Source of the DNA: Antedon mediterranea
Lineage: Eukaryota > Animalia > Echinodermata
Reading direction: 5' to 3'
DNA length: 64,000 bases
Assembly (NCBI RefSeq): GCF_964355755.1
Contig: NC_092680.1
Coordinates: 12,214,001-12,278,000 of the forward strand
Position numbers and translations under genes: made by a program. Positions 25,751 to 63,405 of this stretch are shown in pieces. The notes below the pieces were generated by a model. It was not told the DNA's origin, ran no database searches, and saw only the letters and a list, made by a program, of their open reading frames with translations. Position 1 is the stretch's first letter. Every line of letters starts with the position of its first letter.

Positions 25751-25782
25751 GAAATATGTACCAACATTTTCTCTAAATATAT

Positions 25783-30138: not shown

Positions 30139-30146
30139 TCTTTCAT

Positions 30147-30592: not shown

Positions 30593-30596
30593 TAAA

Positions 30597-31891: not shown

Positions 31892-32026
31892 GGGAGAGAT
31901 AGATCAGCGAGAGAGAGATAGATCAGCGAGAGAGAGATAGATCAGCGAGAGAGAGATAGATCAGCGAGAGAGAGATAGATCAGCGAGAGAGAGATAGATC
32001 AGCGAGAGAGAGATAGATCAGAGAGG
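31892..32026. repeat. Continuation of the GATCAGC(GA)n satellite (~7 units)
   Basis: Same unit; removing the LTR element restores GATCAGTGAGAGGGAGAGATAGATC, a variant seen elsewhere in the array. Confidence 0.95.
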
Positions 32027-32434
32027 GAGCGCACAATGCAACTTTTCAATGCTAATCAGCGGCGGCCGATCAGCATATCGCGATGCAACCTGTTTTTTGG
32101 GTGCAATTATGCTGATTTCAGATGCACTCGCGTCGATTGAAGAATTTTCAGCAGTTAGGTAATCACTGGCATTCAGCCTCTTTCACTAATTTTATAAATA
32201 AACCCATCCGGACGCGGTGTTTTTTTAAATTTTTAAATTCATCTGTATTGATCTGATCGTTAAAACAGACTGTTTGTAGAAAGGTAAGGCTATAAGCTAG
32301 GTACTTTTATTACATTTTATTATCCTAACATAAATTTTTATTGCATAACCAAGTGCCTTAATCCCTGTACTAAAGTACAGAGATTTTTTGTTTTAAATGG
32401 CCAAAATAAAAAAATACCACCATAAAATGATTGT

Positions 32435-32942
32435 GGCCTAGCCTAGCCTAGGCCTAGGCCTAGGCCTAGCCTAGAGGCCCCTAGTTAGGCTTAGGCCTAC
32501 TAGCCTAGGCCCTAGAGGGCTAGGTCTAGGCCTAGCTAGGCTAGGCCTAGGCCTAGCTAGCTAGCTAGAGGCCTAACAATAATTAATAAGCCCTCCTAGC
32601 TAGGCTAGGTCCTAGCTAGCTTAGCTAGGCCTAGCCTAGGAGGCATAGCCTACCTAGCTAGGCCTAGGCCTGCGTATTAAAGTATTATTATAGGCCTAGG
32701 CCTAGATAGGGTAGGAACTAAACCTACCTCCTTGGGCCAGGCTATAGGGCCTACTAGCCTGGTCTACCTAGCTAGGCCTAGGCTAGGTTAATAATAGTTT
32801 AGGCCTAGCCTAGTTGGCTGAATCTGTCTGTAGCCTAGATAGGAGGTTAGGTGTAGGCCTATGTCATGTATAGGCCTAGTCTCTAGCTAGGCCTATCAAT
32901 CATACCACACTAGCTAGGTTAGAGTAGGCCCCTAGGCCTAGC
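32435..32942. repeat. CTAG/GGCC/AGCT low-complexity palindromic simple-repeat tract
   Basis: Dense CCTAGG, AGGCCT and CTAGCTAG words; lies between a donor AAG|GTAAGG (32284) and acceptor TTCCACAG (33059), i.e. in a probable first intron. Confidence 0.85.
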
Positions 32943-34410
32943 ATAAAGGAGAGGGTATTAAAAGTTGGACCACAGTAGGCCCTTCTCGTTAGCAAGTATA
33001 TGCTACCCCTGGCTTCAGTGCTTTTTTTTTCTTCAAAAAATGTATCATTTGTTCCACAGATTATTTCAAAATGGACCGTTTTTGTAATTCACCCGTAAGT
33101 AAACAATTCATTTACCTAAATTTACCTGAATCCAGGATGATTTATTCCAGGTTTGGTGGAGCGATTCAACTCGCTTTGTATACTGAAACATCCAGATTTT
33201 ATGCTGGACCAAATGGTTGTTGTCAGTTGTTGGTATTTTAAGTTTATAAAATGTTATCGCTAAAGCAGACTTTTTATAAAATGTACGTCATTACTAATCT
33301 AATCTCCTAAATGAGCTGACATGTCCCGTACTGATAATGCTCCTTGGCTGAATCACAAATGTAATAATCCATTTATCTAGAGCTTATCTTAGTCATGGAA
33401 TTCAACTTTTTCAAGTACAGTATATAAAAGTAAGGTTAAGCCTTAGAAAAGTAATAATAATACTGCACTATGTAATAATAGTTACGGATAACTTTAGTTT
33501 AATTATTTGTAACAAATATACAATAATAATAACATTATTTTTTTATAGCAACCTGATGAATTAACTGAAAGCGATTTTTTTTAATCATGAAGACTGGTAA
33601 GTATAGTTAGAAATTTATTGATAAATTACTCCATTTTTACATCCATGACAAATTTAGATGGTAAGTATTTTATTTTTAATTCCAATATTGTATCTTCGTT
33701 GGTACAGCCTTCTTGAAAAATGACATGTTATAAACAAACCTTTATTCATTTTTATTCATAATGATAAAAAAGTAAGGGTTTGAAATGATTTTTTTAATTA
33801 TTTGCTTTAATGAAATAAAAGAGGTTAATAATTAGAGCCTGTATTTGTTTTTCAAAGTAAAAATTAACTAACAATATTTGTTTAATTTTATTATTAGTAG
33901 CAAAGAAGACTACATGTCTGACAAAGTGTAAGTATCCAATTTGAGAATAAATCGGTTGTGTTTGTATGAACCACGACATCCAGATTACTGATCTTGCGCT
34001 GATGGCTAGGGTTTAATTTGAGCCTACCTTGCAAATTTTAATATTAATCGGTTCAATAATTAACCAGTTAGTTAACTCGGGTGATTTGTTATCTGTGATA
34101 AACCATTTTTGCCATAAATTTACAATTTTGTTTTATTTTGACGTAATTATTTATACTTTATTATTCACACCATACAATTCAAACTTATTTTTGTTAAAAA
34201 ATAAATACTTGAAATTATTTTGTTAACGAAGAATAGGATATATACTGTTGTTTATTTACCTAAAGCCAAACATCTATTCTAATTTGTGCAAACATACATG
34301 CTTATATAATTTCTATATTATTTCATAGTAGGTCTATAAATAGTTTTTTTTTTCGACTTTTATTTTAATACACCTACAATATTTGTGTGTACTTTGTGAA
34401 CTATTAATAG

Positions 34411-34620
34411 AAGTGAGGATGGAGAATTTGAGAAGAAAGAAAATAAGGAAGAGGAAAACATGGAGGAGGAAGAAAATGAGAAAGAAGACGAGGAAGAAGA
34501 AATGGAGGAAGAGGAAAACATGGAGGAGGAGGAGGAGATGGAGGAGGAGGAGGAGGAGGAAGAAGAAGAAGAAGAAAGCGAGAAAGAAGACGAGGAAAAA
34601 GAAGAGGAGGTAGTTGAGAT
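34411..34620 (+). CDS. Glu-rich exon (SEDGEFEKKENKEEENMEEEE...EEEVVE)
   Basis: TAATAG acceptor, GTAAGT donor, 210 nt, phase 2-2, compatible with the flanking microexons 33901-33927 and 34809-34838. Confidence 0.75.
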
Positions 34621-36289
34621 GTAAGTTATGAACTGTTTTGTATTTAGACATTCTAGAATGAACATAGTTTATCATTTTCTAAAATTTACCAGTATTATTT
34701 TTCTAGATTGAGCTTATTATGTAGCAAAACATATACTATTGAGCATCCTTATTTGTGTTAACTTTAGTTATTACTATAACCATAACAATATTTTTTTAAT
34801 TTGTTTAGGTATAGTGATTTTCAAAAGAAGGGAAAAAAGTAAATATAATATTTTTTGACTAATACTGTAATTAAAATAAACAGCCAATGGATCACTTAGG
34901 CCCTAAATGCTATGTTATTAAATAATGTAAAAATAAAAATACGGTAGTTATATACAGTTAACATGAAATATTATATTACTTTATCAGTACTTTTCCTTTA
35001 ATACCTATGTGTTGTATTTTGTTTTTATTAGGAAGGACATAGAAAAGAAGAAAGCTGTAAGGGAAAGTAGCATATTGAATATACTTTTGTACTTAATTTG
35101 AAGTAAAATATTAACTTAAACTTTGTTTCCTCATTTTTTTTATTATCAATTTAGCTAGATTAAATTTTCCCTGTAGATTAGCATCAAAAATCTAATTACC
35201 GTAGATAGTTGTAGTTTACATCTGTGGTTACTGAAGTCTTAAATTATTTAACTTCATTAAAATAGTTTTTTTTATTGAATACAAATAATATAAAATTTTA
35301 TATTTTGATATTGGTTGTTGATAATGAATAGACCTTAAAGCATTCATTCAAAATAGTCATGGTTTATTATTGCCTACAGAACAGAAAATTGTTAACATGC
35401 ATTCTGTGTGGCCGCATAAGCAGGTACCTTGCCAGCCATCTGGAAAAGGCCCACAAAATAATAAATAGAGAAATAATTAAAAACATGGTTGCTGATGCTA
35501 GAAAAAGGTGAGTACTTCATTCATTATGAACAATTTTTTTCATGTGGTTACCAGCTAAATTATAAATAACATATTGTTAAGTATAACATGGAGTTTCTTC
35601 AGCTAAATATAATAAATTACATATTTTTATTTATCTTAGTTTTGTTTGCAGTTTCTTTTTTATAGAATATTTTACTAGTTAACTCTACCAATACTGGAAA
35701 CCGAAAACTGCACTTGTAATGTATTGAAAACCAAACATTCTCAATGGTTTCTATTTTTGGGTGAATTGAATACTGTGATTGGATTATTGAAAAATGATAA
35801 ACAGTTTTGTATGTTTTATCTAGTTATCATGAGTGTATCATTTAAAGTTTTCTAGATACTAATGATAAAGGGGGAAAAAAAAAGCCAGACATTCCTGCAG
35901 TGTGCCTGGATGTTCGGCTAAAAACCTGGCAAGGTATGACATGCATCTGCAAAGGAAGCATAAATTCCCTGTAAGTTAAAATTCTTTCAACTTTAGCAGA
36001 TATATGTTCAATCAAATGTTAAATTAAATTTTTTGTTTTATTTCAGACCAAGAAATAGTGTGTAGAGTAGTAATGTATTTCCAACTATTATAATTGTTTG
36101 TTTATTGTTTATTTTTTTTTAAAATATGTATGTTAATTACAAAAATCTATTTTTTAGAGTTCGTAGAGTATCACCACTCTGTCTCAGGTCCAAATTTTGA
36201 GGTGTACATGCAGTACACTTTAAAATTATTTATTATTTTGTTAGTATTTAATAGAATGTGTGTTTGTTTTATTTTAATCTATGCTTAAA

Positions 36290-38320
36290 TCCACCACATT
36301 CAAATTCGGATGTGGCATACACTTTCATATTAACATCATCCACCAGATAACTGCATGCATGTTTATTTGTTTAGTAGTTTATAGAATGTGTTTGTATGTT
36401 TGTTTTTTTTTTATTTAATCTATGCTAATTTTTCAGATTCAAATCCTGATGTGGCATACACTTTCATATTAACATCATCCACCAGATAACTGCATGCATG
36501 TTTATTTATTTAGTAGTTTATAGAATGTGTTTGTGTGTTTGTTTTATTTTAATTTAATCTATGCTAATCACTCAGATTCAAATCCTGATGTGGCATACAC
36601 TTTCATATTAACATCATCCACCAGATAACTGCATGAATGTTTATTTGTTTAGTAGTTTATAGAATGTGTTTGTATGTTTGTTTTATTTTAATTTAATCTA
36701 TGCTAATCACTCAGATTCAAATCCTGATGTGGCATACACTTTCATATTAACATCATCCACCAGATAACTGCATGCATGTTTATTTGTTTACTAGTTTATA
36801 GAATGTGTTTGTGTGTTTGTTTTTAAAAAATTTAATCTATGCTAATTTTTCAGATTCAAATCCTGATGTGGCATACACTTTCATATTAACATCATCCACC
36901 AGATAACTGCATGCATGTTTATTTGTTTAGTAGTTTATAGAATGTGTTTCAGTTTTTGTTTTTTTTAATTTAATCTATACTAATTTTTCAGATTCAAATT
37001 CGGATGTGGCATACACTTTCATATCTCACATCATCCACCAGATAACTGCATGCATGTTTTTTTTGTTTAGTAGTTTATAGAATGTGTTAATCCATGCTAA
37101 TCACTAAAATCTATTTCTTTTATAGAATGCTATCATAGCTCAGCTGGTAGAGCATCGGCACTCTTGTCGAAGGTCTCGGGTTCAAATCCTGATGTGGCAT
37201 ACACTTTCATATTAACATCATCCACCAGATAACTGCATGCATGTTTATTTGTTTAGTAGTTTATAGAATGTGTTTGTGTGTTTGTTTTATTTTAATTTAA
37301 TCTATGCTAATTTTTCAGATTCAAATCCTGATGTGGCATACACTTTCATATTAACATCATCTACCAGATAACTGCATGCATGTTTTTTTGTTTAGTAGTT
37401 TATAGAATGTGTTTGTGTGTTTATTTTACTTTAATTTAATCTATGCTAATCACTCGGATTAAAATCCTGATGTGGCATACACTTTCATATTAACATCATC
37501 CACCAGATAACTGCATGCATGTTTATTTGTTTAGTAGTTTATAGAATGTGTTTGTGTGTTTATTTTTGTTAATTTAATCTATGCTAATCACTCAGATTCA
37601 AATCCTGATGTGGCATACACTTTCATATTAACATCATCCACCAGATAACTGCATGCATGTTTTTTTTGTTTAGTAGTTTATAGAATGTGTTAATCTATGC
37701 TAATCACTAAAATCTATTTCTTTTATAGAATGCTATCATAGCTCAGCTGGTAGAGCATCGGCACTCTTGTCGAAGATCTCGGGTTCAAATCCTGATGTGG
37801 CATACACTTTCATATTAACATCATCCACCAGATAACTGCATGCATGTTTATTTGTTTAGTAGTTTATAGAATGTGTTTGTGTTTTGTTTTATTTTAGTTT
37901 AATCTATGCTAATTTTTCAGATTCAAATCCTGATGTGCCATACACCTTCATATTAACATCATCCACCAGATAACTGCATGCACGTTTTTTTGTTTAGTAG
38001 TTTATAGAATATGTTAATCCATGCTAATCACTAAAATCTATTTCTTTTATAGAATGCTATCATAGCTCAGCTGGTAGAGCATCGGCACTCTTGTCGAAGG
38101 TCTCGGGTTTGAATCCTGATGTGGCATACACTGTCATATTAACATCATCCACCAGATAACTGCATGCATGTTTTTTTGTTTAGTAGTTTATAGAATGTGT
38201 TTGTGTGTTTATTTTATTTTAATTTAATCTATGGTAATCACTCAGATTCAATTCCTGATGTGGCATACACTTTCATATTAACATCATCCACCAGATTACT
38301 GCATGCATGTTTATTTTTTA
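36290..38320 (+). repeat. Intronic tandem array (~139-bp unit) derived from a tRNA-like/SINE head, array 1
   Basis: GATTCAAATCCTGATGTGGCATACAC...CCACCAGATAACTGCATG recurs at 36436, 36575, 36714 (period 139); long variants carry a full tRNA-like head at 37129, 37732 and 38056. Confidence 0.92.
37129..37199 (+). pseudogene. tRNA-like cloverleaf (pseudo-tRNA / SINE head), representative copy
   Basis: GCTATCA TA GCTC-AGCTGGTA-GAGC A TCGGC-ACTCTT-GTCGA AGGTC TCGGG-TTCAAAT-CCTGA TGTGGC A: D, anticodon and T stems pair and A/B boxes are present, but the anticodon loop is 6 nt and the acceptor 3' strand is 1 nt short. Confidence 0.8.
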
Positions 38321-40264
38321 TTTACTTTGTAATTGTTTTTAAATACTTTAATTTTCGCTGTATGTCTTAATCCATGCTAATTTCTTAGCTTACTTGTGAT
38401 GCAAATCAAAGTTATATAGGTAAGTTATACATTTACATTTTTTTTTTGGTTGGCAATCCTGAATATATTAAGTTCAGACAACAAAAAGTCTGTAAATTTG
38501 CAGGTAACCTTTTATTTATAAAATTATTATAAAGTTTCATTTTTTGATAGATAATTAATAGTTTCAATTTAAAAATAAATGTGTACCTTTTATTGACAAA
38601 AACAATTCATTTTATCTATGCTGGAGAATTATAATTACCTAATTTCTACTACTAACTACTACATTTAGGTCAAATACAAAGTTCTCTTTATCCCAAATAA
38701 TTACTATTAATTTAGATAACCAATCCCAGACACTAATAAATAAAATTACTGTAATAACAATTGTAATATAATAATAATTATGTCATGGGTCAACTTTCGG
38801 ATCCTGAACTTTGTTTTCCAAGAATGGACTTATTTTTAATGTCATTAAAGTCTTTTTAACTTCTATAGAGCCATCTACAACAATGAGCCGGTTCAAGGCC
38901 TACATGTTAGAAACTTTAAAAATACCGGCAAAGCATGCAGCACAGGTCATAAAGGGGATAGAGGGAATTTGGAGTGAAGCAGGGGAGAAGGGATATTCTC
39001 CAAAGATATTAAAGACGTAACATTTTTTTATTACAATTATATTAATAGAAAAAGGAAGAAGCCAAACAATTTAAATTTCATTTAGCATTAAAATAAAAAG
39101 TTTTCTTAAATGTCAGCTATAGATTGTGAGTATAATGTATTATTGCCTGCTACCTTCATTTTCTTGAAGGAAGAAATAAATGTTAAGTTGAATTTGAATT
39201 GAATTTTAAACCATGTGAAGTTACCATGAATCACTCGATCCTAATTACTATAATGAAGATATTACATATTTTAATATTTGATTTTTGTGTATTGTACTCT
39301 TCTTTTCATTTTTTTAAAAATAATTGTTTAGTGCTGTTAGCCATTTACAATTGAAGCTTGCTGGCTCCACGTTAAGACACTACCTGTGCTCCTTTGTGAA
39401 AATATTGGACTACATTTCAATATACGAATCTAAATCTGTTTCGCTTGCCGAAATATACAAGTGCAAAGATGCATGCAAAGGCCTGAGCAAAGCTCTCAGA
39501 AAACGCATTTCTGAAGAGAAGGCCAAAAAGCACGAAGAAATTGAAGGTAACATCTACTGAATTAAAGTTTTTCTTTTCATCAAATGTTTGAAAGTCATAT
39601 TATTTAAATTGAAATAATAATAATAATATGTTTTAATTTTCTTTTAAGGTGATCTAGTTTCGGCGGACGAACAATCCCATTATCTCAGAAAATCTGAGAA
39701 AACAATTAAAAGCATAGTTGGTATGTTTTTTTATATATTATTTCTTTATCCATAAAATGTATTGATAATCATAAGATTTATCATATTGTATGTTATTAGG
39801 TAAAGACTAGGAGAAACTAGGAGAAATAACTATAACTAACCTTAATCCTAGCTTATTTAGTCATTGTGTTAGTAAAGGTAATTAGGTATAGGTAAAATGT
39901 TGATTATGATATTGTTCTAAGGTTCACCTGTATTTACCAGGACAAGGTCACTATGTAAATGATCAAAATCCTTTTACTAAACTAAGTACAGTAGTAGTTA
40001 ATTGATTTCCAAGTACCCTTAATCTATCTGGGTGCATTCTTGCACAATATTATTATGGTTGTCTGGCTGGCTATCCTTTTACTTTTACTATTGATATATA
40101 AAAATGTAGTATGTTACCTTTTATTTCAGGCATTGGATGATTGGCAATTTTAATTTTATTAAATTAAACTAGGAGAATGGGAAAAGTAAACTATTTTAAA
40201 GGCAAAAATATTCACACATAATTTTATAATAAATAAATAACCTTATTTCTGAACATTTACATCT

Positions 40265-42422
40265 AGTTCAAATCCTGATGTGTCATACATCATCCACTCA
40301 ATAACTGTGTATTTAATTTTTAATATTTTGTTTTAGTGGTTTATAGAATGTGTTAATCCATGCTAATCACTAAAATCTATTTCTTTTATAGAATACTATC
40401 ATAGCTCAGCTGGTAGAGCATCGGCACTCTTGTTGAAAGTCTCAGGTTAAAATCCTGATGTGGCATACACTTTCATATTAACATCATCCACCAGATAACT
40501 GCATGCATGTTTTTTTTTTGTTTAGTAGTTTATAGAATGTGTTTGTGTGTTTATTTTACTTTAATTTAATCTATGCTAATCACTCAGATTCAAATCCTGA
40601 TGTGGCATACACTTTCATATTAACATCATCCACCAGATAACTGCATGCATGTTTATTTGTTTAGTAGTTTATAGAATGTGTTAATCCATGCTAATCACTA
40701 AAATCTATTTCTTTTATAGAATGCTATCATAGCTCAGCTGGTAGAGCATCGGCACTCTTGTCGAAGGTCTCGGGTTCAAATCCTGATGTGGCATACACTT
40801 TCATATTAACATCATCCACCAGATAACTGCATGCATGTTTATTTGTTTAGTAGTTTATAGAATGTGTTTGTATGTTTGTTTTATTTTAATTTAATCTATG
40901 CTAATCACTCAGATTCAAATCCTGATGTGGCATACACTTTCATATCTAACATCATCCACCAGATAACTGCATGCATGTTTATTTATTTAGTAGTTTATAG
41001 AATGTGTTTGTGTGTTTGTTTTATTTTAATTTAATTTATGTTAATCACTCAGATTCAAATCTGATGTGGCATACACTTTCATATTAACATCATCCACCAG
41101 ATAACTGCATGAATGTTTATTTGTTTAGTAGTTTATAGAATGTGTTTGTATGTTTGTTTTATTTTAATTTAATCTATGCTAATCACTCAGATTCAAATCC
41201 TGATGTGGCATACACTTTCATATTAACATCATCCACCAGATAACTGCATGAATGTTTATTTGTTTAGTAGTTTATAGAATGTGTTTGTGTGTTTGTTTTT
41301 TTTAAATTTAATCTATGCTAATTTTTCGGATTCAAATCCTGATGTGGCATACACTTTCATATTAACATCATCCACCAGATAACTGCATGCATGTTTTTTG
41401 TTTAATAGTTTATAGAATGTGTTAATCCATGCTAATCACTAAAATCTATTTCTTTTATAGAATGCTATCATAGCTCAGCTGGTAGAGCATCGGCACTCTT
41501 GTCGAAGGTCTCGGGTTCAAATCCTGATGTGGCATACACTTTCATATCTCACATCATCAACCAGATAACTGCATGCATGTTTATTTATTCAGTACTTTAT
41601 AGAATGTGTTTGTGTGTTTATTTTTGTTAATTTAATCTATGCTAATCACTCGGATTCAAATCCTGATGTGGCATACACTTTCATATCTAACATCATCCAC
41701 CAGATAACTGCATGCATGTTTATTCGTTTAGTAGTTTATAGAATGTGTTTCAGTTTTTGTTTATTTTAATTTAATCTATACTAATTTTTCAAATTCAGAT
41801 GTGACATACACTTTCATATCTCACATCATCCACCAGATAACTGCATGCATGTTTATTTGTTTAGTAGTTTATAGAATGTGTTTGTGTGTTTGTTTTATTT
41901 TAGTTTAATCTATGCTAATTTTTCAGATTCAAATCCTGATATGGCATACACTTTCATATCTCACATCATCCACCAGATTACTGCATGCATGTTTATTTGT
42001 TTAGTAGTTTATAGAATGTGTTTGTGTGTTTATTTTACTTTAATTTAATCTATGCTAATCACTCAGATTTAATTCATGATGTGGCATACACTTTCATATC
42101 TCACATCATCCACCAGATAACTGCATGCATGTTTATTTATTTAGTAGTTTATATAATGTGTTTGTATGTTTGTTTTATTTTAATTTAATCTATGCTAATC
42201 ACTCAGATTCAAATCCTGATGTGGCATACACTTTCATATTAACATCATCCACCAGATAACTGCATGCATGTTTTTGTTTAGTAGTTTATAGAATGTGTTA
42301 ATCCATGCTAATCACTAAAATTTATTTCTTGTATAGAATGCTAACATAGCTCAGCTGGTAGAGCATCGGCACTCTAGTCGAAGGTCTCCGGTTCAAATCC
42401 TGATCTGGCATACACTTTCATT
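40265..42422 (+). repeat. tRNA-derived tandem array 2
   Basis: Same unit; tRNA-like heads at 40395, 40723, 41464 and 42340. Confidence 0.92.
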
Positions 42423-43744
42423 TTTATTTTGTTTTAGTAGCCACGCAATCCCGGGAGACGGCTGTAAGAGCCCACAATCTTATAGCAGCAAACCGTCAAC
42501 TCGGGAGAAGTGGGGTAAGATTTAATTTCTGTCTAAAATGTTTGTATCCCGAAAGATGTTTATTTTTTATTGAAACATAACATAATATAAAGAATATATC
42601 TAACACTTTAATAATTAGCAATCAACAAGAAAACAAACATTGCATCTATTAACTAAAATTTTACTTTACTTTTTTTAATGTGCTATGTACACTTTTTCAG
42701 AATATAAATGAAACTGCTGATGTCCAGGTAAGGATGGCCATTACTTTCATATAAAAAACAAAAGAATGCAAACTGTATAATTTATGTGTTTTATAAATGC
42801 TGTATAACTACCAATTAAAGGAACACAATTTCGCATCTTAAATCATTTTAATATTAAGCTTTTATTATCCCAAATGCAATACATACTTCACTTTAAGGTA
42901 TATCTTTTCTAGGTTGCATTTTCAAGTGTGGAGGACACCATAGATGAAATGCTGGTAAGATACAATTTTCACATAAATATATATTTTTCCAGTGTCCATT
43001 TATTTACAGGACTGAATTCTATGTAATCATTATTATTATCTTGTATACCTCTTTACGAATAATGAAACAAGTAATGGTATTATGTACAATATTATTTTAC
43101 ATTCACCAGGAAATTTCTCAAGCACATGCGAATGAAGCGCCATCATCTGTAAGTATTCAATAATTGTTAATAAGGACACATTTGTAAAGCATCAAACTAA
43201 TATTGCCAGACCACACTCCAGTCCACACTCTTTTTAATTGGTACTGCAATATATGGTCAACGTTGATGTAGTATTTTTAAACAATTTGTATGAGTACTGT
43301 ACATTATCGTTTTAGTACTGCAGTATGATTCCTTGGGTGATGGTAGGATTTTGAGTCTCCCAATATATTGCACTAATGTTTTTACCAGGTCAGCAAAGTT
43401 TCCTGGTATATTTGGCTTTACTGTACTTGTTTAATTAGTTTTTATTTCAGGTCAGCAAAATGTCCCTTGTACTTGTATGGACATTCTTTAACTGTTTTTA
43501 TCAGGTCTTGGTATCTCAAAAAACAGGAAAATGTTTACTTTTTAAATTTGCACATTACTCTTTGTATTCTCTAGTTTGTATGCTTAGTTAATTTATTTAT
43601 ACAAACTAATTTGAGGCCTCCCCAAGATAACTTCTGTAGTTTCTAAAGTAATTGTTCAAATCCTCACTTTGCAGTTGTATATTGTTTAAATGTAGTAGTT
43701 TTCAGAATGATTTTTCCATACTAAATATCAACATCTTCTTCTGT

Positions 43745-44531
43745 TATAGAATGCTATCATAGCTCAGTTGGTAGCTTAGTAGTTTATAGAATGTGTTTGT
43801 GCTTTTTTTTTTATTTAATCTATACTAATTTTTCAGATTCAACGCCTGATATGGCATACACTTTCATATCTCACATCATCCACCAGATAACTGCATGCAT
43901 GTTTATTTGTTTAGTAGTTTATAGAATGTGTTTGTGTGTTTGTTTTATTTTAGTTTAATCTATGCTAATTTTTCAGATTCAAATCCTGATGTGGCATACA
44001 CCTTCATATTAACATCATCCACCAGATAACTGCATGCACGTTTTTTGTTTGTTTAGTGGTTTATAGAATGTGTTGATCCATGCTAATCACTAAAATCTAT
44101 TTCTTTTATAGGATGCTATCATAGCTCAGCTTGTAGAGCATCGGCACTCTGGTCTCGGGTTCAAATCCTGATGTGCCATACACTTTCATATTAACATCAT
44201 CCACCAGATAACTGCATGCACGTTTTTTGTTTGTTTAGTGGTTTATAGAATGTGTTAATCCATGCTAATCACTAAAATCTATTTCTTTTATAGGATGCTA
44301 TCATAGCTCAGCTGGTAGAGCATCGACACTCTTGTCTCGGGTTGAAATCCTGATGTGGCATACACTTTTATTTTAACATCAACCACCAAATAACTGCATG
44401 CATTTTTAGTTTTGTGTAGTACTGAGTTTATAGAATGTGTTTATTTTATTTTAATTTAATCTATGCTAATCACCCATAATCAAATCCATATGTGGCATAC
44501 AATTTCATATTAACATCATCCACCAGATAAT
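43745..44531 (+). repeat. tRNA-derived tandem array 3 (more decayed)
   Basis: Same unit; heads at 43753 (truncated), 44115 and 44297 (deletions in the anticodon/variable region). Confidence 0.88.
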
Positions 44532-45071
44532 CTTACAAGCACTTTAATTACTCCTGGTATTATTGTCATTATTATTGTTATCTAAAACATCAATACAATT
44601 CTCATTTGAAATACTTAAAGTACATTTTCTGTAAAACTTATTTCACCTATTAATTTGACTTTATTATTTTTCTACTTTCAATATAACTAGTCTGTAAGCC
44701 ATCCTCTAAGCAAACATGGCCCAAAGTCGAAATTCGACAACCAAGACGTTATGGACGCTGTATTTAAATTGTTTGGCAGACAAATAGAAGAGGGTCATGT
44801 GCCAAAAAGAACAGTATGTTTAATGTTTATGTATTATCTATTTAATTGTAATAATCACCATCACATTATTAAATACAATTTTTATTTTTTTTTGTAGGCA
44901 AGAGAAGTCTATAACAAAAATCCAGTTCTCCATTACTATGAATTTAAACAGTTATATGACAAAATGAGGAGGATCCATCCAAAGGTAGGTTTATGTTTTT
45001 AATTTCAGTGGCATGCAGTAGCAAGAAATTATTTAAAAGCATTGCAAGTTTTCTATAGAACTATGAAGATT

Positions 45072-50156: not shown

Positions 50157-50161
50157 ATCAC

Positions 50162-51305: not shown

Positions 51306-51311
51306 TGGTTA

Positions 51312-51668
51312 TTTAGGGTATGTCCAGACTCTTGGCCTAACACTTAAATTGTTACAAAACCATTGGTGTTGAAAAAGCTGTATATGGTTTTGACCGTTCA
51401 GTTAGGAACCTTCTACATCAATCTAATTTCGTTATAAATTTAGTAGTACCAACCCTGCCTATTATTTCATTTATCCGTGGCATTGGATATGCATTTTTTT
51501 GTAATTCATGTTAAAGCGAGCTGTACCGTCCCGTTTTGGACAGTGAGACTCTTCTTTTACTTTGCCTAACTTAGCCTGATGAATTGGATAAGCTTTTTGT
51601 CTAACTGGGTGTACGTCATGCTTTATTACAGTAGTTTTTCCATGCAAATTTTCAGTTATTATGAACAT
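51312..51668 (-). mobile_element. Degenerate Gypsy RT fragment
   Basis: Minus-strand peptides PVRQKAYPI, KRDGTARF, GTTKFITKLD and LTERSKPYTAFSTP. Confidence 0.75.
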
Positions 51669-51669
51669 T

Positions 51670-52690
51670 TCCATCTACATTCCGCACACTAATCTTGGAA
51701 AAGAGGTCCTTTGTGAAATAAATGATGTTATCTTAGATATTGAAGCCAAATACGCTGATGCTTATATTATAATAAATGATGATTTTAATCGCAATAATCA
51801 ATCGCAATGGATCAATATTACACGAACGTTATACATTATTCTCATTTAGAGGGTACAAACACCAACACAGTGTCAGAATAATGTATTTTGATCTATCATC
51901 GGCCTTCATCTGTTGACAAATAATTTGATAAATGCCAACGTACCTAATAAGTTGAATGGCCTTGTACTTAATTTTGTTGACACATAGATATCAATATATT
52001 AAACTGAACAGCGAAGTTAAATATGAAATTATTGTTTAGTAACACAGGTTCCCCACAGGGCACAGTTTTAGCCCCTTTCCTATTCACTGTGTTCACTTCA
52101 GACTTTAAGTCCGATCACCCAGATTGTCCTGTTATCAAATTAGCTGATGACACAGCCATCCTGGGTCAAACATGACAACTATGGTTATTATAAAGCTGAA
52201 ATTGACTGGTTTGTAAGGTTTTTGTAATAAAAACCATCTTAAACTTAATACTGCTATTCTAAGACCAAAGAAATGGTAATAGATTTTCGTAATAAATTTA
52301 GGGCATCTACTGATATTATTCATTCATTATTGATGGTAATCATGTAGAGATAGATTAAATTTTTCTGAATATTTAGAATATATTAGTAAGAAATTAAATA
52401 CTCGTATGTAAATGCTTTTAATGTGAGTAACAAAACCATCAATATCTTTTATACGTCAGTTGTTTGTGGGGTTTGGAGTTATTGCTTAACGGGATGGGGA
52501 GAAATTGCTTTTAACAAAGATAAAGAATTAATAGATCGTCTGATTAGAAAAGTTAGCAGAATCACTTGTGTCTGTTTGCCTTCAGTTGACTATCTCTACA
52601 GAGTAAGGATAACAAATTTGTTTTCTCATATAAAAACTGATGAACTTTATTTCCTCCATGATGTGGTTATCAGTCATACTATCCCTAGGT
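51670..52690 (+). mobile_element. Degenerate, internally deleted LINE (Rex1/Babar- or L2-like)
   Basis: IYIP..YIIINDDFN (endonuclease-like), SNTGSPQGTVLAPFLFTVFTSD..IKLADDTAILG (RT), KTKEMVIDFR and FYTSVVCGVWSYCLTGWG. Confidence 0.8.
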
Positions 52691-52900
52691 GGACGTATCA
52701 TGTGGGGAGAACCCAGTAGACTCCTGCGGTATCTCCCTATAAGCAAATAATAGGTACGGAAGCAATTTATTCCATTCCCGGGGATCATCCTGAACAAACC
52801 ATACACTTAAGGGTGCCATTAAAGCTTTCCACTAATTCCTCGGTTTGTGGATGGTAGGGAGAAGTAGTACTTTTACGTCAAGAGTCTGAACATACCCTTA
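52690..52900 (-). mobile_element. Degenerate Gypsy integrase fragment
   Basis: Minus-strand TTSPYHPQTEELVESFNGTLKCM and PREWNKLLPYLLFAYREIPQESTGFSP. Confidence 0.85.
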
Positions 52901-53015
52901 ATAAGTAATTGTTAGTTGATTTAGACAAAACATGTCTCATCGTTTAATATTTAACATTAATTGTTTGTGTGGTGGTTTAATAACATATGTAGTTGATAAA
53001 TTATTCATTATTGTA

Positions 53016-53459: not shown

Positions 53460-53699
53460 TATTATATTCATAGCATGTGTTAATAATGAATTGTTGAAAT
53501 GTTATACTATTTTAAATGATTTAATAATGGAAATGTTAATTTAAGTTACAAAAAAAGAAAAATAAAATTCTATAAAGTAATTAATGAAAACAGTAGTTTT
53601 GTCTTCTATGCAAGGAAAGACCTTTCAAGATGTTATATATGGATCATCAAATCACAGACAGGTTAAACATAATTCTAGCATTCTGTAGCTTAATAGATT

Positions 53700-54730: not shown

Positions 54731-55681
54731 CTTTCAGTTTCATCTATGTGGGTTGGTGTTGAAGTCATTAATGATGACAACTATTGTAACTGGTTGCATT
54801 TACTGTATTCAGGTAATTCCCAAGGTAATCCATTAATCAATCAAATAAATTTTTATTCCATAATACTTAAAATAAGGTTGTGTTCAGAACATTGTGTGCA
54901 TGCAGAGATATTAGGACGTCCTCCCTCACTCCTCAACTTGGCAGTTTTGATGTATTCTAGTTTCAGATGACCACCGACAACCTACCTAAGGTCAGATCAA
55001 TCGAAAGGTAGTTTCTACAGAAGTTATTAAGGCAACACAATTACCACCTGCACATTACGTTATAATCAATTTTATTTTTGGTTTTCCTTGTGCAGTGTCA
55101 TATGTCTTCCTGGAACTTTCTACGACAGAGATGTAATTCTACATCAGAGATTCAGAGCACCTCGGGCCTGCCTGTCTTCCCTGTTGTATACTAGCAATTG
55201 TCACTTTTAAAGCAAAAAATGTCATATAATAACATAATGCTGTCTCTTCTCAATCGTGCTCCATTTATGTTATGCTATGGTAGAATCATCTAATTTTATA
55301 GCTTCATGTTAGAATTACAAATTATATGGAATTCTCAGGATTAAATTAATTAAAAACTCATCCGATGATCAAATCAAATATTGATACATTAAAGACTTGC
55401 TTAATGTAACTTTGGTTGAGATTTAAAGCATTTGTTTTTCTTCTCTTTTGTGGGTATCGCCCACCTTTATTCTTATTTCCCTTATAAAACATTTTCTCTT
55501 TATGGTCTTATGACGTCATTACAGCTTCTTTCGCTGTACCCCCACATTCGTGCTTGTTTTTACATTGATGACCGAATAAATATTATTATTATTTACCTCA
55601 TAAATTTTGTTTCTGTTTTGCAATACAATGCATAAAGTCTTATTATTTATGTTGTTTTCATATTTTCTTAACAAAATTTAG

Positions 55682-56693
55682 GAACTTGAGGATTCCACTG
55701 GACTAGACAGCATTCCAGGCTGCTACCTTATGCAGTTTAAGGAAGACAGTGAAGTCATAAGTCAAAGTCATGCTGAACATGTCACAAAGTTGTGGAACAA
55801 CCTGGATGCGTATGACAAAACCGTTAAGCGCAAAGCACGGCATCACGATTACCTCACAAAAGGCAGGTTCAAGAAAAGTAAAACGACTGCTGTAATACCT
55901 GGTGTTGAAAGCACTCGACAGTAAGGCAGTTTCCTGCGTTTTTCACTTTGTAGGTTAACAGATGCTTCTTAGGTCAGAACACCGGACCAGCCCAATGGCC
56001 GGACTGCAATCGATATATGGAGTGCCTTATTACAAAACTATGTGAAGAGTATCCGTCTACCGTATATATCGGAGGGAAACATTTCCAGCGCTGGCCGCTA
56101 ATCGGCAAAGGCTACAAAAACATTCGTCGGAAAGTGCTATCAAATGGACACCTGATGTTGTTTGGTAAGCTTCAGTTGATGGAGATAAATCATACGACAC
56201 TCATCCAGCGGTGAGTTTTAACTTGTTATTGATGTTATTACAGGTACAACAGAACATCAAAGAAGCAAGAGCAGCAAGTTTTGGAATCTGGCATCTCAGC
56301 AACAATACCCAAACTTGTCTCTGATAATACCCTACTTGAACCTTTAACCAATCCAGCGGTGCTAAACGATCCTGCAAGCGCTCCATCTCTCACATTTGTC
56401 CAACCAAAAAACACTTCCGGCCGAGCAACTCTAGGAAACAGACTGTCGATCCCAGTTCCAGGCGAGATAGCAAACCCACCACCATCAGTCCCTGCGGCTA
56501 GTAGTACTCGCATTCCTAGAACTACCCTCTTGTACAGAAAACGAGTGGCTAAAGACATTGGAAACCGATCAAAATGTACAAACCAAGAATGTCTGTGATT
56601 GTGTGCTCAAAGTGTAAGCAACCAAGGTTAAATAAGAACCACACTCAGTACTATGGAAATTGGTATTGTGCTGCAACATCTGATGAAGCATGA
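55682..56693 (+). pseudogene. C-terminal exons of a DUF6729/Dada-like transposase
   Basis: Exons 55682-55920, 55962-56210 and 56244-~56693 splice in frame: GLDSIPG..KLWNNLDAYDK..RH..LTKGRF..PGVESTRQ|CFLGQNTGPAQWPDCNRYME..LC..RW..Y..IR..QLMEINHTTLIQR|YNR..KKQE..VL; after a frameshift CSKCKQPR..HTQYYGNWYC. Family assigned from recalled motifs; no DDE core seen. Confidence 0.65.
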
Positions 56694-58222
56694 AAATTGG
56701 CTATTGGTTGCCACCCGTCACCATCGTCAAGAGTGGAAAAAAAAACAGCAACAAGAATGATTCCAAATGATTTTTGTAGCCATGGATAGAGTTTTTATAC
56801 TGTTTCATATATATATATATCTTCTATTTTTTGTTTTGTTCTGTTATTTTATTTTCACTTTTTACAAAATATTTTATATTTTATGCAATTTGGCCATTGG
56901 GCCACCATATCTAATGGTTTTCTGAATGTGCAATAAAGTTAATAAAAATAATAATAATAAAAAAAGTTTTTAATGCTGCCAAATCCAAAGAGCAATGGTT
57001 AATGTAGTGAATTATTTTGTAATTTTTATATTATTACAATAAGTTTATATAGTTACATTATAATTTACATTAAATCATTCATTGCACTTTGTATTTGAAG
57101 GTCCCAAGCCCTTACAAAAAAGCAGAGGGGAAACTTTTGCAATGAAATGTGTACATTAAATTGTGATTTCTATATTCTTGTCATGAGTATTTTATATTTC
57201 AAGAGTAATTCCACTATAATTCATTTTAATATGAATCAAATATTTCCTTCCACGAATTCTAATATTTTTGATAAACATGTCTCGTCATATTAAAAAAAAG
57301 GATTTTATATTAATATTATTTAATATTTTTATTTATTTAATACATTGATCATTTGATAATCCTCTAAAATGGACAGTTTTTAGTCTGCCGGTATTCAAAA
57401 CCTCCTAGCTTCATTGGTCAATTGTCCAGTTTCCTCATTATGTTATTACTTTGTATGTATATTTTATGATTTTCCTAATAAATTCAAATCAAATTAATTA
57501 TTATTTCTTATTTAAATAAATATTTATTGTTCATTGCATAATTCCCAGTCAAATTTAAGCATTTCATGTAATGGAACATTGACACTCTCTGTGTGATGTA
57601 ATCAATAAAATTTTAAATATTGTATTGTGTTTTGTTTCACTCTTGAATTTTTTTTGTCTCTCAAATGATATTTATGGTAGATACGACAGTGTCTTCCTTT
57701 TATGAAATCGAAGGTAATGCTTTTAAAATGGTGTTTCAGAAGATTTATTATTTTCTTTACAGTATGTTCTTTACATTAGGGTACACCATGACCATTTCTA
57801 TCGGGACCATTTCTATCGGCACAGTTTACCTGGCATCAAATGAATATTTTTTAGTTTTTTCTAGTAATTTGATTTGGTTTCGGCTGACCTAATTTGTAAA
57901 TTTTTTTCTGAAAATTGTTTTTATTGACGATTGTCTATAAGAGATGTGTTTTTTGTTGGTAAGTAGGGATGCGGCAACAGACATATCAGTGGCCGAAATT
58001 CACTGAGCTGTTTATTGAGCTGTTTATTAGCCAATGAGGTTGATGTCCCGATAGCCGCAACACCAAATGTTGATGATTGATAGAAAATACTAATTTACAA
58101 CAGAAAAACAGAACAACTTGTACGGAATGTAAACTTGATCGATGGCCTCATCCAACAAGACCTTATCCTTATTATTACTCCATGTTATTAAGGGCAGTAT
58201 AACAATAATAATGTTATTTTCG

Positions 58223-58455
58223 CCTAGCTAGCAACTAGTCTAGATAGCCTGTGAATATAAATGCTGTGAATACTTTGATAGTATTACTAAAGTACTTGAA
58301 CATTCAAACTAGGCCTAGACTACTTTATCTAGGCCTACCTACTTCAATTAACTATATAACTATAGGCTAGGCCTAGTAGTAGGCCTACTACTACAGTACT
58401 ACAATACGACTGGAGGCCCTCTAACTAGCCTGGCTTAAACTTCGGCCTAGCGTAG
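58223..58455. repeat. Second CTAG/GGCC-rich low-complexity tract
   Basis: CCTAGCTAG, CTAGGCCTAG and AGGCTAGGCCTAGTAGTAGGCCTAC words, as at 32435-32942. Confidence 0.7.
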
Positions 58456-58606
58456 ACATAGCTATGATCCCTACCTCTCCCTTGTTTATTATAAGACAAT
58501 AAAAAGTACTACATATTATAGTCTAGTCATTTGTTTAATCGTTTACCAAAAAAAAGCCATCCTACATGTTTGTTTGGTCCCGTTTGTTTATATTATGATA
58601 ATTGAT

Positions 58607-61600
58607 CGGGTGTGTCGAAAGCGAAGACCTCGAAAGCGAAGATCGAAGACCGAAGACCTCGAAAGCGAAGACCCTACGAAATGGTAGTGTGCACAAAATC
58701 CGACCAAAATCATACAAAATCGTGATAACACCTTGAATTTACAAATCCTGAAAAAATATTTCAATTTTAATCGTTATATTATAAAAAATCATGACTTTAT
58801 CTATGAACAAGCTCACGTGTTTTCGCCAATGGAGTTAATATGTGATATAGTTTTACGAACAAACACATCGCGCTATTTGGAAGGCGACGGACGCACAAGA
58901 AGGACCTCGCACATGAAATGTCACTTGTTCCGATAACAATTTAAAATCATAGCCAATTGTTTATAAGTATAGAAATAAACTACAGTAAGTAAATTGTAAG
59001 AAGTAAAGGATGGCGGTAGGCCCGGTATTTAGGTTTATTTTAGAGCCTATAGGCCTATAAAAAGTGTCCGTATCATAGATTTTACACTTGCTTTTAAATG
59101 TTAGGTACAGAGATCTTTTTTGCATTTAAATATGTTGCTATGTGTTTTTTATCTATAATATTTGCCTATTGTTTATTATCTAAATGTATGAATAAATACA
59201 ATAAGATATTCATTTTCCTGTATTGTATTTAAACTTTTACATTTTCCCATTGTAACTATTGCTATTTTACTTAATCGCCAGTTTCAAAATGTTTTCTAAT
59301 GTATTCATAATAGACAAATAATAGGGCCTATATCAGTATCAGAATATTTAGTGTGGTTGGAGAAGCGACAGATGATGTAAAGAAAAATGTAAATTTTTTT
59401 TGGTTAATGAAATATTTATTTTCCTTTTTTGGAAAATGAATATTTCATTAACCAACGTATGAACCACTAAACAAAAAAAATTCTGCCGCAACGTATCGTT
59501 GGCGCGCGCAACAGAAAATCTATCTATCTATCTATTTTGCATCCCCTCTTACGATCGAGAATCATGATGAACGTAATAAAGCAGAAATGGTGTTGAACAC
59601 ATCGGTTCCCACTTGTGATGACACGCAACGTTATTTTCTTACGGCGCACTTTGCGTCGATCTGAAAACCAATTTCAGCTCTTAAAATATTTCCCGGGCCA
59701 ATGACAGTTCGTCCCAATAGCTTACCGTGAACTAACGGAACTTTATTTTATATCTTTGTATTGTCAAAGTAAAAAATAATACTGTATTCAAATTATGATT
59801 TGACAAAAGGCTAATACTGTAGAACGAACGATAGACATCACACTCTGAACATTTTTCTTGATCGTTAACCCGTTATAATAGTATAATTCTGTTAGATTTG
59901 TTTGTATTAGTGTCAATTCTATATTTAAATGGTCAACAACCGGTAACCTGTTTCTTAATTAAAATTTTATGTTTTCTTTTGTTAATGGACACTCATGGCA
60001 GGGATGCAAACATTTAGAAGCGGGACGTCGACAATCTGTTGAAAATCGGGAGACTGTTGAATAGTCGTCTCAACCACAAGCCTGTGAGATAGAAGGTTGG
60101 GGGTTAGAGTGGTTAAGCCCGATAAACATTCACCATCACTTAATAAAGATTTATAGAGAGTATCTCTTTTTGTATTCACCACGGGCAATGCTTGAAAACA
60201 AAAGTCAGTTTTTTATTTGATGATGAGGAAAATTGTGGTTGGCGGGAGTGGAACTTCATTAAACTAATCTTTTGACAGTGTCGGTAAACGTAATTACCGA
60301 TATGAATAAACACCCGTTTTAATATTGAAAAATAAATTAAACGTGAACACACTATCGTCACTAATCACATTGCAACCGTAACAAAATCGGCAACTTGTAA
60401 TTTTGGAGGGAATATTTTTTATTTCAATCTTTGTTTTGAATGGCTTTTGTCTTTGTGAACGTTGACATAATGCCGGCATAATAATTCGGAATTATGGAAG
60501 CCGTGAAACAGATGATATGTCGCAGGAAACGACCGATTTATAACCAAAATTTGCAGAACGCTGATGCCTATATCGTTCGTTCTTTTTACTTCTTGTCAAA
60601 TCATAATTTGAATATATTCTGCCAAATTTGGCCCGGGAAATATTTTAAGAGCTGGAATTAGTTTCCAGATCGACGCAAAGTGCGCCTTAAGAACAAACTT
60701 GCGTGTCATCATAAGTGGGAACCGACGTGTTCAACACCGACTGCTTTACGTTCATCATGATTCTCGATCGTAAGAGGGGATGCAAAAATAGATAGAAGAG
60801 TATTAATTTCTTATGTTGCGCGCGCGTCAATACGATACGTTGCGGTAGGATGTTTTCGTTTAGTAGTTCATACGTTGGTTAATGAAATATTTATTTTACA
60901 TTTTTCTTCTTTACATAGTACTGTCGCTTCGCCAACCACACTAACCGATACTGATAATATTATTTTTCCATTATGAATACATAAGAAAAACATTTTTAAA
61001 CTGGCGAATAATTAAATCAGTAATACTGTAGTATTGGCTACAATGGGGAAAATGTACAAGTTTAAAATACTATACAGAATAACTAAAGGAAAATAAATAT
61101 CTTATTGTATTTATTCATACATTTAGACAATAGGCAAATATTATAGATAATAAACATACATCAACATAATAATATTTAAATGCAAAAAAAAAGGATCTCT
61201 AAGTTGTATTCACGCGTACGTATAACATTTTTAAAAACAAGTGTAAAATCTATGATACGGACACTTTTTATAGGCCTATATAGGCTCTAAAATTAGGCTA
61301 AATAAGCATATGGCCATCCTTTACTTCTTACAATTTACTTACTTTAATTTATTTACTTTACTGTAGTTTATTTCTATACTTTTCTATACAGTTGGCTATG
61401 GCTTTAAATTGTAGGCGACGTGTGCTACAATACAAAGTTATCGGAAAAAGTGACATTTAATATTGCATTCAATTCGAGGTCCGTCGCCTTGCAAATAGCG
61501 CGATGTGTTTGTTCGTAAAACTATATCACATATTAACTCCATTGGCGAAAACACGTGAGCTTGTTCATAGATAAAGTCATTTTTTTTGATAACATAACGA

Positions 61601-61755
61601 TTAAAATCGAAATATTTTTTTAGAATCTGTAAATTCAAGGTGTTATCATCGATTTTGGTCGGATTTTGTGCACACTACCATTTCGTAGGGTCTTCGCTTT
61701 CGAGGTCTTCGGTCTTCGATCTTCGCTTTCGAGGTCTTCGCTTTCGACACACCCG
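58607..61755. mobile_element. Foldback / MuDR-like non-autonomous DNA transposon with ~1.2-kb inverted arms
   Basis: CGGGTGTGTCGAAAGCGAAGACC... and ...GGTCTTCGCTTTCGACACACCCG; arms ~58607-59845 and ~60555-61755 around a ~0.7-kb spacer; 9-bp TSD ATAATTGAT (58598-58606 and 61756-61764; 11 bp GATAATTGATC if the ends are GGG/CCC). Mirror ORFs 58733(+) and 61638(-) confirm the inversion. Confidence 0.92.
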
Positions 61756-63405
61756 ATAATTGATCCACGCTGAACCTCCGGGTTCCACTTTTGAATTTGA
61801 AGTCCGCAGAATAATGCTCAATAATTCACTATTTACTCATTCCCAAGTCACTAAATTGATCTCCCTTGGTTCACAAATGCACAGTGTCTGACGCCAATAA
61901 AAGGAAAGAATAAGTGTAACAGCCAAATTAAAATAAAATCGAAGCAAAATAAGAAAAAAATATCTGTTTACGATAGCGAAATTACGCTAAACCTAATTGC
62001 CAATATAGCGTGACGTCTGCGGACCGACGCGATAACCTCAATGTGTGTTGAACCGCAAACAAATTTCAATTTCGTTCTGTATGTTACAAAAAGGATATTT
62101 CGCGTTCCAAATTTTTTTGTATGGTATAGAAAATCGCATAAATTGTCACTTTTTTGTACAGTTTCAATTAAATCCCTTTGATATGTTATAGAAATATAAT
62201 CAAAGCATTGCTTCATATAAAGTAAAGTAGTAATTTTGAAGAAATTACGGAATTTAGCATTCACAAACATTGGGTTGACATAACCCTAACGGCTAATTTT
62301 ATTTATTTACTAGTTTAATTTTTAACAAATTCGATTAAGGCAACATAAAATTGTCGAATTTTAATCAAACAACTCCTAAAAATAAATAAAAATCAGCATA
62401 GTTATTAATTAAATCTACTTTATTAAAATAACCAAACTACAGTTATAAAACTATTTAAAAAATATAATAACGAACGAGCCTCCAGTGAAAGGGCGACCTC
62501 AATTTAGACGTGCGCTCTTTACATAAAAGGTAATTAATTATAGCCGAAAAACGATAAATTATCGATTTTGACCCAAGAGAATATTTTCTTTGTTGAAAAG
62601 TGAGTAGAGAAAAGCATACTTCATACAATTTAATCAAATACATACCAAGTTATAAGTCATGAAAAAATTCAAAAATCATCAAAAGTGCATTCGAGTCTGA
62701 GAAATTACGCGTTTTTTACATTTTTTTCAAAAAAGACACGATATTTTTTTTAGTTTTCTTCATTAAAAAAAGAGAGTATATAAATGTATTGTGTATGAAA
62801 CTCAAAATTTTTACAAAACGATGAATTTTTGTGTAAAATAACGTGTTTTTGGTAAAATCAGCATATGTGCACCTTTAAGTACACACATAAAAATCGCCGC
62901 GGAAACCATTTTCCCGATGTCAAATCGGGTTGAAACTCTGGAAAAACGATCTTTTGGTGTTTTTTTACATAGGAAAAATATAAACGTTATATGTTTCCAA
63001 TGTAAAGTAAATGTTTAAAGGACGATGTTGGTGAATGTGAAATAAAAAATATGACGACCTATCGTTCTTAGAACATTACTCAATTTTTTCCCCAAAACGA
63101 TATTTTTCATAAAAAACAAGGAAGATAACGTGTAAATCATTAGAGACATGAATGTTAATTAGAGACTTAAATAATCTCTCAGAAAAACGATATTTTACAG
63201 ACTTTTTATTGAATAGGTAGAGAAAGAGTAATAATTATATGTAAATCAGCATATGTGCAATTCTCATAGTGACAGTCTCGCGGAGAGCAAACATGCACCT
63301 GTGCCTATGTCTTACTGTGGAAAGTCCCCCTAGATTATCATCAAATGTGCATGTTTCTCACTGAAAACTGTAGGTGGCCGATGTGCATTTTTGCATGTGC
63401 GCTCT

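What the first reader, a model, noticed from the sequence alone, without database searches (positions are those of the whole stretch)
32027..63404. Candidate giant satellite-targeting DNA transposon carrying both a Dada-like DDE transposase and tyrosine-recombinase-like genes
Seen: a 31.4-kb non-satellite block interrupts one GA satellite (same orientation on both sides), and exactly at the two junctions sit inverted 14-15-mers GAGCGCACA(A)TGCAA. Inside are spliced exons for a zinc-finger/YR-like protein and the C-terminal part of a transposase-like protein. Known: Dada DNA transposons are target-specific (U6, U1, tRNA genes), lack long TIRs and make 6-7-bp TSDs. Inference: this is a large, intron-rich, cargo-bearing Dada-type element that targets a microsatellite-derived satellite and also encodes a YR, a combination I do not know as described. 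This copy is decayed and non-autonomous.
Basis: partly seen in the sequence, partly recalled or inferred. Interest (0 to 1): 0.88.

Follow-up and report, generated by a model that had tools for sequence, protein, structure and literature searches.

The report
Recombinase-type element carrying dead Dada fragment
A 31-kb block with short inverted ends sits inside a GA-rich satellite of a likely feather-star genome and holds only broken enzyme genes; it is likely a passenger-laden relative of recombinase-driven jumping genes that favour simple repeats, not the Dada-type transposon first proposed.

Summary
A 31,378-bp block interrupts the satellite, and its 14/15-bp inverted ends beat chance (0 of 3000 random pairs). 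In public contigs both arms of the block run at one depth, near-identical, and parts recur in runs labelled as other organisms.

The Dada reading fails. The Dada-like exons are only residues 904-1250 of a crinoid Dada transposase, with no DDE core. They are frameshifted and belong to a separate, higher-depth Dada family that diverges on both sides of a 1.6-kb piece. The ends are inverted, with a 4-bp direct repeat rather than a 6-7-bp duplication.

The second gene is a lead-level tyrosine-recombinase (YR) relative. It keeps zinc-finger-like and core-binding-like exons, and no catalytic domain was found. Joined, the two ends would match YR site geometry.

Best reading (about 50%): a non-autonomous Crypton/CryptonV-like element bloated by repeat arrays and transposon debris. 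Satellite targeting is unproven: the copy number looks low (roughly 4-10), the satellite itself duplicates in kb blocks, and no independent insertion site was seen.

The parts
32027..63404 (+). Whole element (31,378 bp); about 10.7 kb tandem arrays and 6.4 kb nested or captured transposon pieces
32027..32041 (+). Left terminal inverted arm (15 bp)
63391..63404 (-). Right terminal inverted arm (14 bp)
32023..32026 (+). Left copy of 4-bp direct repeat GAGG, abutting the left arm
   Evidence: AGAGAGG flank shared by a run X5 contig
63405..63409 (+). TGAGG: one extra T plus the right copy of GAGG; shared by the X1 and X5 contigs that cross the junction
32102..32118 (+). Subterminal 17-bp motif, left (candidate arm-type binding site, inferred)
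62855..62871 (-). Subterminal 17-bp motif, right, inner copy
63243..63259 (-). Subterminal 17-bp motif, right, outer copy
34416..34621 (+). Acidic low-complexity exon candidate of the YR-like gene (by eye)
35380..35971 (+). Two C2H2-like exon candidates (35380-35507 and about 35856-35971); three length alleles among copies near 35874-35883, so the frame is broken in some copies
   Evidence: no Pfam hit
38869..39720 (+). Three exons (38869-39016, 39332-39546, 39649-39720); the last two match residues 2-97 of crinoid protein P0007 (YR core-binding-like region, lead level)
42438..44984 (+). Downstream small exons with no match to P0007's next (box-I-like) segment, then two last exons resembling a helical C-terminal domain (resemblance recalled, untested)
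36263..44520 (+). 139-bp tandem arrays in introns, with 8 tRNA-like 61-71-mers (Rfam 24-39 bits; 7 of 8 above the gathering score of 29)
45072..49620 (+). 82-bp tandem array, 55 copies
51309..52904 (.). Nested insert with 32-bp inverted ends, holding LINE RT and Gypsy-integrase-like scraps
55594..57192 (+). Captured Dada 3' fragment: exons 55682-55921, 55960-56209, 56243-56757 = residues 904-1250 of P0001, with an in-frame deletion and frameshifts; no DUF6729, no DDE
58597..61765 (.). Foldback insertion with 11-bp direct repeats, absent from the X1, X5 and X6 contigs that span the site

Best explanation
This is likely a non-autonomous, tyrosine-recombinase-type (Crypton/CryptonV-like) mobile element sitting in a GA satellite, which carries a recombinase-like gene with no detectable catalytic domain and a dead 1.6-kb piece of a Dada transposon. 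SHOWN: the inverted 14/15-bp arms, the 4-bp GAGG direct repeat, the inverted subterminal motifs, the equal contig depth of both arms of the block, and the broken state of both genes. INFERRED: a complete recombinase encoded elsewhere would bind the arms (with zinc fingers on the subterminal motifs) and excise the element as a circle. The circle junction would be two 13-14-bp inverted arms around a 5-7-bp GA-rich spacer, which would recombine with a GA tract and leave the short direct repeat. The element then swelled with arrays and nested pieces. The Dada piece is cargo and plays no part in movement.
For: [quoted passage not shown] Two consecutive exons match P0007 (E 1.2e-8; second exon 0 of 500 shuffles). 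P0007's Atlas neighbours are unnamed animal clusters at 0.95-0.97, and 8 of its 10 best named hits share one clan (phage integrase, DUF3504, DUF3435, ResT; scores 0.81-0.86, leads only). The 15 element contigs listed for X1 have depth 1066-1817 with 0-4 differing letters each, from 32035 to 63422 (tables cut). Dada-family contigs run at about 6900-8200 and diverge before 55594 and after 57192. Microsatellite-targeting YR elements are on record (CryptonV, one sentence in PMC8869645; nimavirus YRs with C2H2 and SAM-like domains, PMC10871703 section 10).
Against: No catalytic YR motif was found in any frame, and the match to P0007 stops before its box-I-like segment. Pfam, PHROGs, NCBIfam and PDB gave no YR hit for P0007 or the exons. 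No full-length relative was found. No autonomous partner with the same ends was seen. The animal Cryptons of PMC3212892 have no terminal repeats. The depth suggests few copies, about 4-10 times the level of unrelated X1 contigs (128-319, an upper-biased list), and about 1-2 in X6; the tool warns that depth is no copy number. X6 has little or no cover over 32145-33990. The satellite holds exact 4589-, 1944- and 1705-bp duplications, so copies could be passive.
Confidence: 0.5

Rival explanations
1. One old insertion (of whatever family) that has since been copied passively by kb-scale duplication of the satellite region; there is no satellite targeting and no recent mobility.
For: The copies are near-identical and share the bases next to the ends. 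The apparent copy number is low. The satellite shows exact multi-kb duplications. Both genes are dead. A Gypsy element also sits in this satellite, so the array collects insertions. This rival is compatible with a YR origin.
Against: Flanks differ beyond the shared bases: the X5 left flank departs after AGAGAGG (21 letters unlike), and the GA tract on the right ends at different places in the window, X1 and X5, although slippage could explain this. An X9 contig starts at 32031, at the same left boundary, in a more diverged version.
Confidence: 0.25
2. A non-autonomous cut-and-paste (DDE) element of another superfamily, with short terminal inverted repeats and subterminal repeats, that captured both the YR-like gene and the Dada piece. 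GAG...CTC ends recall Sola (recalled, not checked).
For: Inverted termini with inverted subterminal motifs are typical of DDE elements. The flanks can be read as a 5-bp duplication with one mismatch (AGAGG/TGAGG).
Against: There is no perfect duplication abutting both ends. The mismatched T is shared among copies. No other transposase remnant was found in 156 ORF pieces scanned with Pfam. The only long spliced gene is YR-like.
Confidence: 0.15
3. One reading: a giant Dada-type element that targets the satellite and carries a YR as cargo.
For: The C-terminal exons are Dada: P0001 has the CCCC, D-D(68)-DxxH-E and CCHC pattern described for Dada-U6_DR. The piece is present at element depth in X1 (1398) and X6 (80). 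The ATCAGC hexamer of the satellite occurs 5 times in the element, all near the ends, which echoes Dada's target-like subterminal repeats.
Against: Residues 1-903 of P0001 are absent from the window. The main Dada family runs about 5-30 times deeper and does not continue into these ends. Dada has no terminal inverted repeats and makes 6-7-bp duplications; neither holds here. None of 18 hits for five end motifs in the fish Dada dataset lay at a matching terminus. Complete Dada elements were 4.7-11 kb.
Confidence: 0.07

Closest known systems
CryptonV (Kapitonov & Jurka 2012, Repbase Reports 12:2034; seen only as cited in PMC8869645)
   Same: YR-type DNA element described as inserting in microsatellites; invertebrate host
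   Different: The definition, ends and proteins of CryptonV were not available to test. This copy is 31 kb, lacks a detectable catalytic domain and carries Dada debris.
Crypton DNA transposons (PMC3212892, passages)
   Same: 4-6-bp terminal direct repeats, proposed circular intermediate, non-autonomous derivatives; a YR plus DDE composite is already known (MarCry-1_FO)
   Different: Described Cryptons lack TIRs and animal CryptonA/I lack terminal repeats; here there are 14/15-bp inverted arms and C2H2-like exons. In MarCry the DDE moves the element, whereas here the DDE piece is dead.
Telomere- and rDNA-targeting YRs of endogenous nimaviruses (PMC10871703, passages and section 10)
   Same: YR with C2H2 zinc and SAM-like domains, some multi-exon, linked to insertion in simple repeats
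   Different: No viral genes here; about a tenth of the size; relatedness to those YRs not tested
Dada superfamily (PMC3706591, PMC8869645)
   Same: The 55594-57192 piece derives from a Dada transposase gene
   Different: No DDE core, inverted ends, no 6-7-bp duplication, no small-RNA gene target
Starships (fungal YR cargo elements; search listings and abstracts only)
   Same: Large YR-associated element with passenger DNA
   Different: Fungal DUF3435 captains and host-gene cargo; here an animal host, with cargo limited to repeats and transposon scraps

Membership tests
Dada | Dada DDE transposase (DUF6729/CCCC, D-D-DxxH-E) | tested here: not met
   Only residues 904-1250 of P0001 are in the window
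Dada | C-terminal CCHC zinc finger of Dada | tested here: met
   CSKC..H..YC at about 56600-56670, reached through a frameshift
Dada | No terminal inverted repeats | tested here: not met
   14/15-bp inverted arms at the very ends
Dada | 6-7-bp target-site duplication | tested here: not met
   Longest direct repeat is 4 bp, offset by one base
Dada | Insertion in a multicopy small-RNA gene | tested here: not met
   Flanks are GA satellite; no tRNA or Rfam hit at the junctions
Crypton/CryptonV | Encodes a tyrosine recombinase with the R-H-R-Y tetrad | tested here: not met
   No catalytic motifs in this copy; non-autonomy would explain it; 36261-52899 not checked in other copies
Crypton/CryptonV | Protein homologous to the YR superfamily | tested here: inconclusive
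   Via P0007: Atlas leads 0.81-0.86, 8 of 10 in one clan; no profile hit; model pLDDT 45, unusable
Crypton/CryptonV | 4-6-bp terminal direct repeats / YR site geometry | tested here: met
   GAGG repeat; arms of 13-14 bp with a 5-7-bp spacer
CryptonV | Repeated independent insertion in one microsatellite | tested here: inconclusive
   X1 and X5 junction contigs run into GA repeats, but independence was not shown
CryptonV | Phylogenetic placement with Repbase CryptonV proteins | not testable with these tools
   Repbase sequences and the defining report are not held
Crypton/CryptonV | Circular excision intermediate | not testable with these tools
   Only contigs were available; the two ends were laid in separate calls

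The most novel reading that the evidence does not exclude
Echinoderms harbour an undescribed family of large, cargo-collecting tyrosine-recombinase elements that home to GA satellites through a loxP-like end site (an animal counterpart of Starships). This non-autonomous member is still being mobilised in trans and keeps a spliced, catalysis-free recombinase gene as a DNA-binding helper or regulator.
Probability: 0.2. Interest if true: 0.7.

Novelty: new variant of a known kind. Interest (0 to 1): 0.38.

Why it matters
Animal YR elements that target simple repeats are barely described in the held literature: 3 papers mention CryptonV, each only in passing. A copy with sharply defined inverted arms and a spacer gives a concrete candidate recombination site that can be searched for and assayed. 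It would also show such elements growing to 30 kb and seeding satellites. If the copies are passive, it is an ordinary decayed transposon nest in heterochromatin.

Tried and rejected
No whole genome is held, so ends could not be tabulated genome-wide. Pfam on 39 + 117 window ORF pieces found only the LINE RT scrap and the Gypsy domains at meaningful E-values. Word-index searches with the YR-like exon and with alignment A1 found nothing among longer proteins; this is weak evidence. PHROGs, NCBIfam and PDB gave no YR hit. The AlphaFold model of P0007 had pLDDT 45, so no fold search was run. Atlas structure rows were all under the bar. Left-end DNA pattern in metagenomes: 0 matches. A1 in viral and metagenome contigs: no relative among 232 and 600 pattern matches. 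No RNA holder was listed. X5 is only a guessed RNA run and showed no splice joint of the YR-like gene among the listed rows, which is not evidence either way. ARAGORN found no tRNA. The seven-exon chain 38869-43148 is stop-free for 206 codons, and random segments keep the last four lengths open in 370 of 20000 trials, but the exons were hand-picked, so I give this little weight. The exon at 42438, which I first took for the catalytic Arg box, does not align to P0007 (498 of 500 shuffles score as well). Sola termini could not be checked in the held papers. The supplements of PMC10871703 were only listed, and Dataset S1 of PMC3706591 was not opened; both could bear on family placement.

Full report
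OBSERVATION. The block 32027-63404 (31,378 bp) interrupts a GATAGATCAGC(GA)n satellite that lies on the same strand on both sides. The ends are inverted 15- and 14-mers that align with one gap; 0 of 3000 random interior pairs reach that end-anchored score. A degenerate 17-bp motif lies exactly once near the left end and twice, inverted, near the right end (motif derived from these sites). Outside the arms there is a 4-bp direct repeat GAGG, with one extra T on the right, and no 6-7-bp duplication. About 10.7 kb of the block is tandem arrays and 6.4 kb is nested or captured transposon pieces. The host is probably a crinoid, inferred from the closest named proteins (Antedon, Anneissia).

IS IT A UNIT? 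No genome is held, so I laid contigs of 4 of 10 listed runs on two stretches, 32003-36260 and 52900-63425 (14.8 of 31.4 kb). In X1 the 15 listed element contigs have depth 1066-1817 with 0-4 differing letters, from 32035 to 63422; the tables are cut. One X1 contig and one X5 contig cross the right junction into TGAGG(AG)n, and an X5 contig crosses the left junction and shares AGAGAGG. Run X6 (labelled as another organism) holds 34611-36260, 52900-54914 and 57468-63369 at about 2-3% difference and depth 50-84, but has little or no cover over 32145-33990. An X9 contig starts at 32031. The foldback at 58597-61765 is missing from the X1, X5 and X6 contigs that span the site, so it is private to this copy. 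Depth is not a copy number, as the tool warns. As a rough yardstick, 14 of the 15 listed joints come from unrelated low-complexity X1 contigs at depth 128-319 (upper-biased), which puts the element at some 4-10 copies in X1 and 1-2 in X6. That is a modest family.

THE DADA PIECE. The exon at 55954 finds 6 proteins, the best 89% identical (P0001, DUF6729). P0001 has the Dada pattern given in PMC3706591 (parts 1-2 of 4 read): CCCC at 289/294/327/330, D468 and D536 (68 apart, as in Dada-U6_DR), DxxH, E726 and a terminal CCHC. The window holds only residues 904-1250, with an in-frame deletion and frameshifts. Contigs of the main Dada family run at about 6900-8200 in X1 and 2190-2361 in X6, and leave the window sequence before 55594 and after 57192. 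Contigs identical to the window's version run at element depth and bridge 57192 into the element (X1 57100-57493, X5 57077-57441). So the piece is a fixed, dead passenger from a separate family. Dada lacks terminal inverted repeats and makes 6-7-bp duplications in small-RNA genes (PMC8869645 parts 1-3 of 5). None of this holds here, and five end motifs searched in that paper's dataset hit no matching terminus (18 places shown).

THE OTHER GENE. Exon 39332-39546 has one HMMER hit among 1.84 billion representatives, the 161-aa crinoid protein P0007 (E 1.2e-8), and the next exon continues the match to residue 97. P0007 goes on into a segment that I recognise from memory as the first catalytic box of animal YRs. 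The window does not follow it there, and a six-frame motif scan found no convincing catalytic motif. The YR label rests on Atlas features of P0007: unnamed animal clusters at 0.95-0.97, and named leads at 0.81-0.86, 8 of 10 in one clan. Pfam, PHROGs, NCBIfam and PDB are blank. Upstream C2H2-like exons are seen by eye, and copies show three length alleles in the second one, so the gene is decaying in at least some copies. The label is therefore 'likely YR-derived, catalytic half not found'.

MECHANISM. Joined end to end, the termini would give two 13-14-bp inverted arms around a 5-7-bp spacer, which fits the YR site geometry and 4-6-bp terminal direct repeats described for Cryptons (PMC3212892 passages). 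The T and GG beside the arms are shared between copies and are rare in the satellite (2 of 976 units). That suits a spacer carried by the element better than a target duplication, but it equally suits descent from one insertion. I infer excision as a circle and integration into a GA tract by a complete recombinase supplied in trans; none of these steps is shown. Against recent mobility: the satellite has exact 4589-, 1944- and 1705-bp duplications, both genes are broken, and no autonomous partner was found.

COMPARISON AND NOVELTY. It works most like CryptonV (known to me only from one sentence and a citation in PMC8869645, and tables in PMC5753468 and PMC4455052) and like the repeat-targeting C2H2/SAM-like YRs of endogenous nimaviruses (PMC10871703 passages and section 10). 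Membership in either was not testable. YR plus DDE in one element is not new (MarCry-1_FO). Searches listed no description of a large YR-type element with Dada cargo in an echinoderm; most subscription papers and Repbase Reports are not held. Earlier scan notes report similar YR elements in telomere or TA repeats of other genomes; these are unchecked leads, not support.

VERDICT. A real element, misassigned. It is probably a non-autonomous YR-type element with dead Dada cargo (0.5). The rivals are a passively copied single insertion (0.25), another DDE family (0.15) and Dada (0.07). Interest 0.38.

Noticed in passing
window 24439-31891: Full-length Gypsy LTR retrotransposon in the same satellite: 1295-bp LTRs with 4 differences, 5-bp duplication GGGAG, and a 1540-codon minus-strand frame with SCAN and zinc knuckle in which integrase precedes reverse transcriptase.
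   Followed up: partly
window 37129-44360: Eight tRNA-like 61-71-mers are embedded in the 139-bp intron arrays; ARAGORN calls none, so they are probably tRNA/SINE-derived repeats amplified in tandem.
   Followed up: partly
window 51309-52904: Insert with 32-bp inverted ends starting GGGTATG and TTTA/TTAA flanks (Kolobok-like, recalled), filled with LINE RT and Gypsy-integrase-like scraps.
   Followed up: partly
window 58597-61765: 3.2-kb foldback element with long nested inverted arms and an 11-bp direct repeat; higher depth than the host element, no coding match.
   Followed up: partly
window 56209-56243, run X5: A GT..AG joint at depth 225 skips the small Dada intron; a hint that the separate Dada family is spliced and transcribed, though X5 is only guessed to be RNA. 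At least 5 near-full-length (1250-1251 aa) members among the 15 listed of P0001's cluster of 16 suggest a recently active crinoid Dada family whose target is unknown.
   Followed up: no
window 1226-24438: The 19-bp satellite contains exact higher-order duplications of 4589, 1944 and 1705 bp (biological or assembly).
   Followed up: partly
window 45072-49620: An 82-bp satellite of 55 copies has grown inside the element, just after the last exon of the YR-like gene.
   Followed up: no
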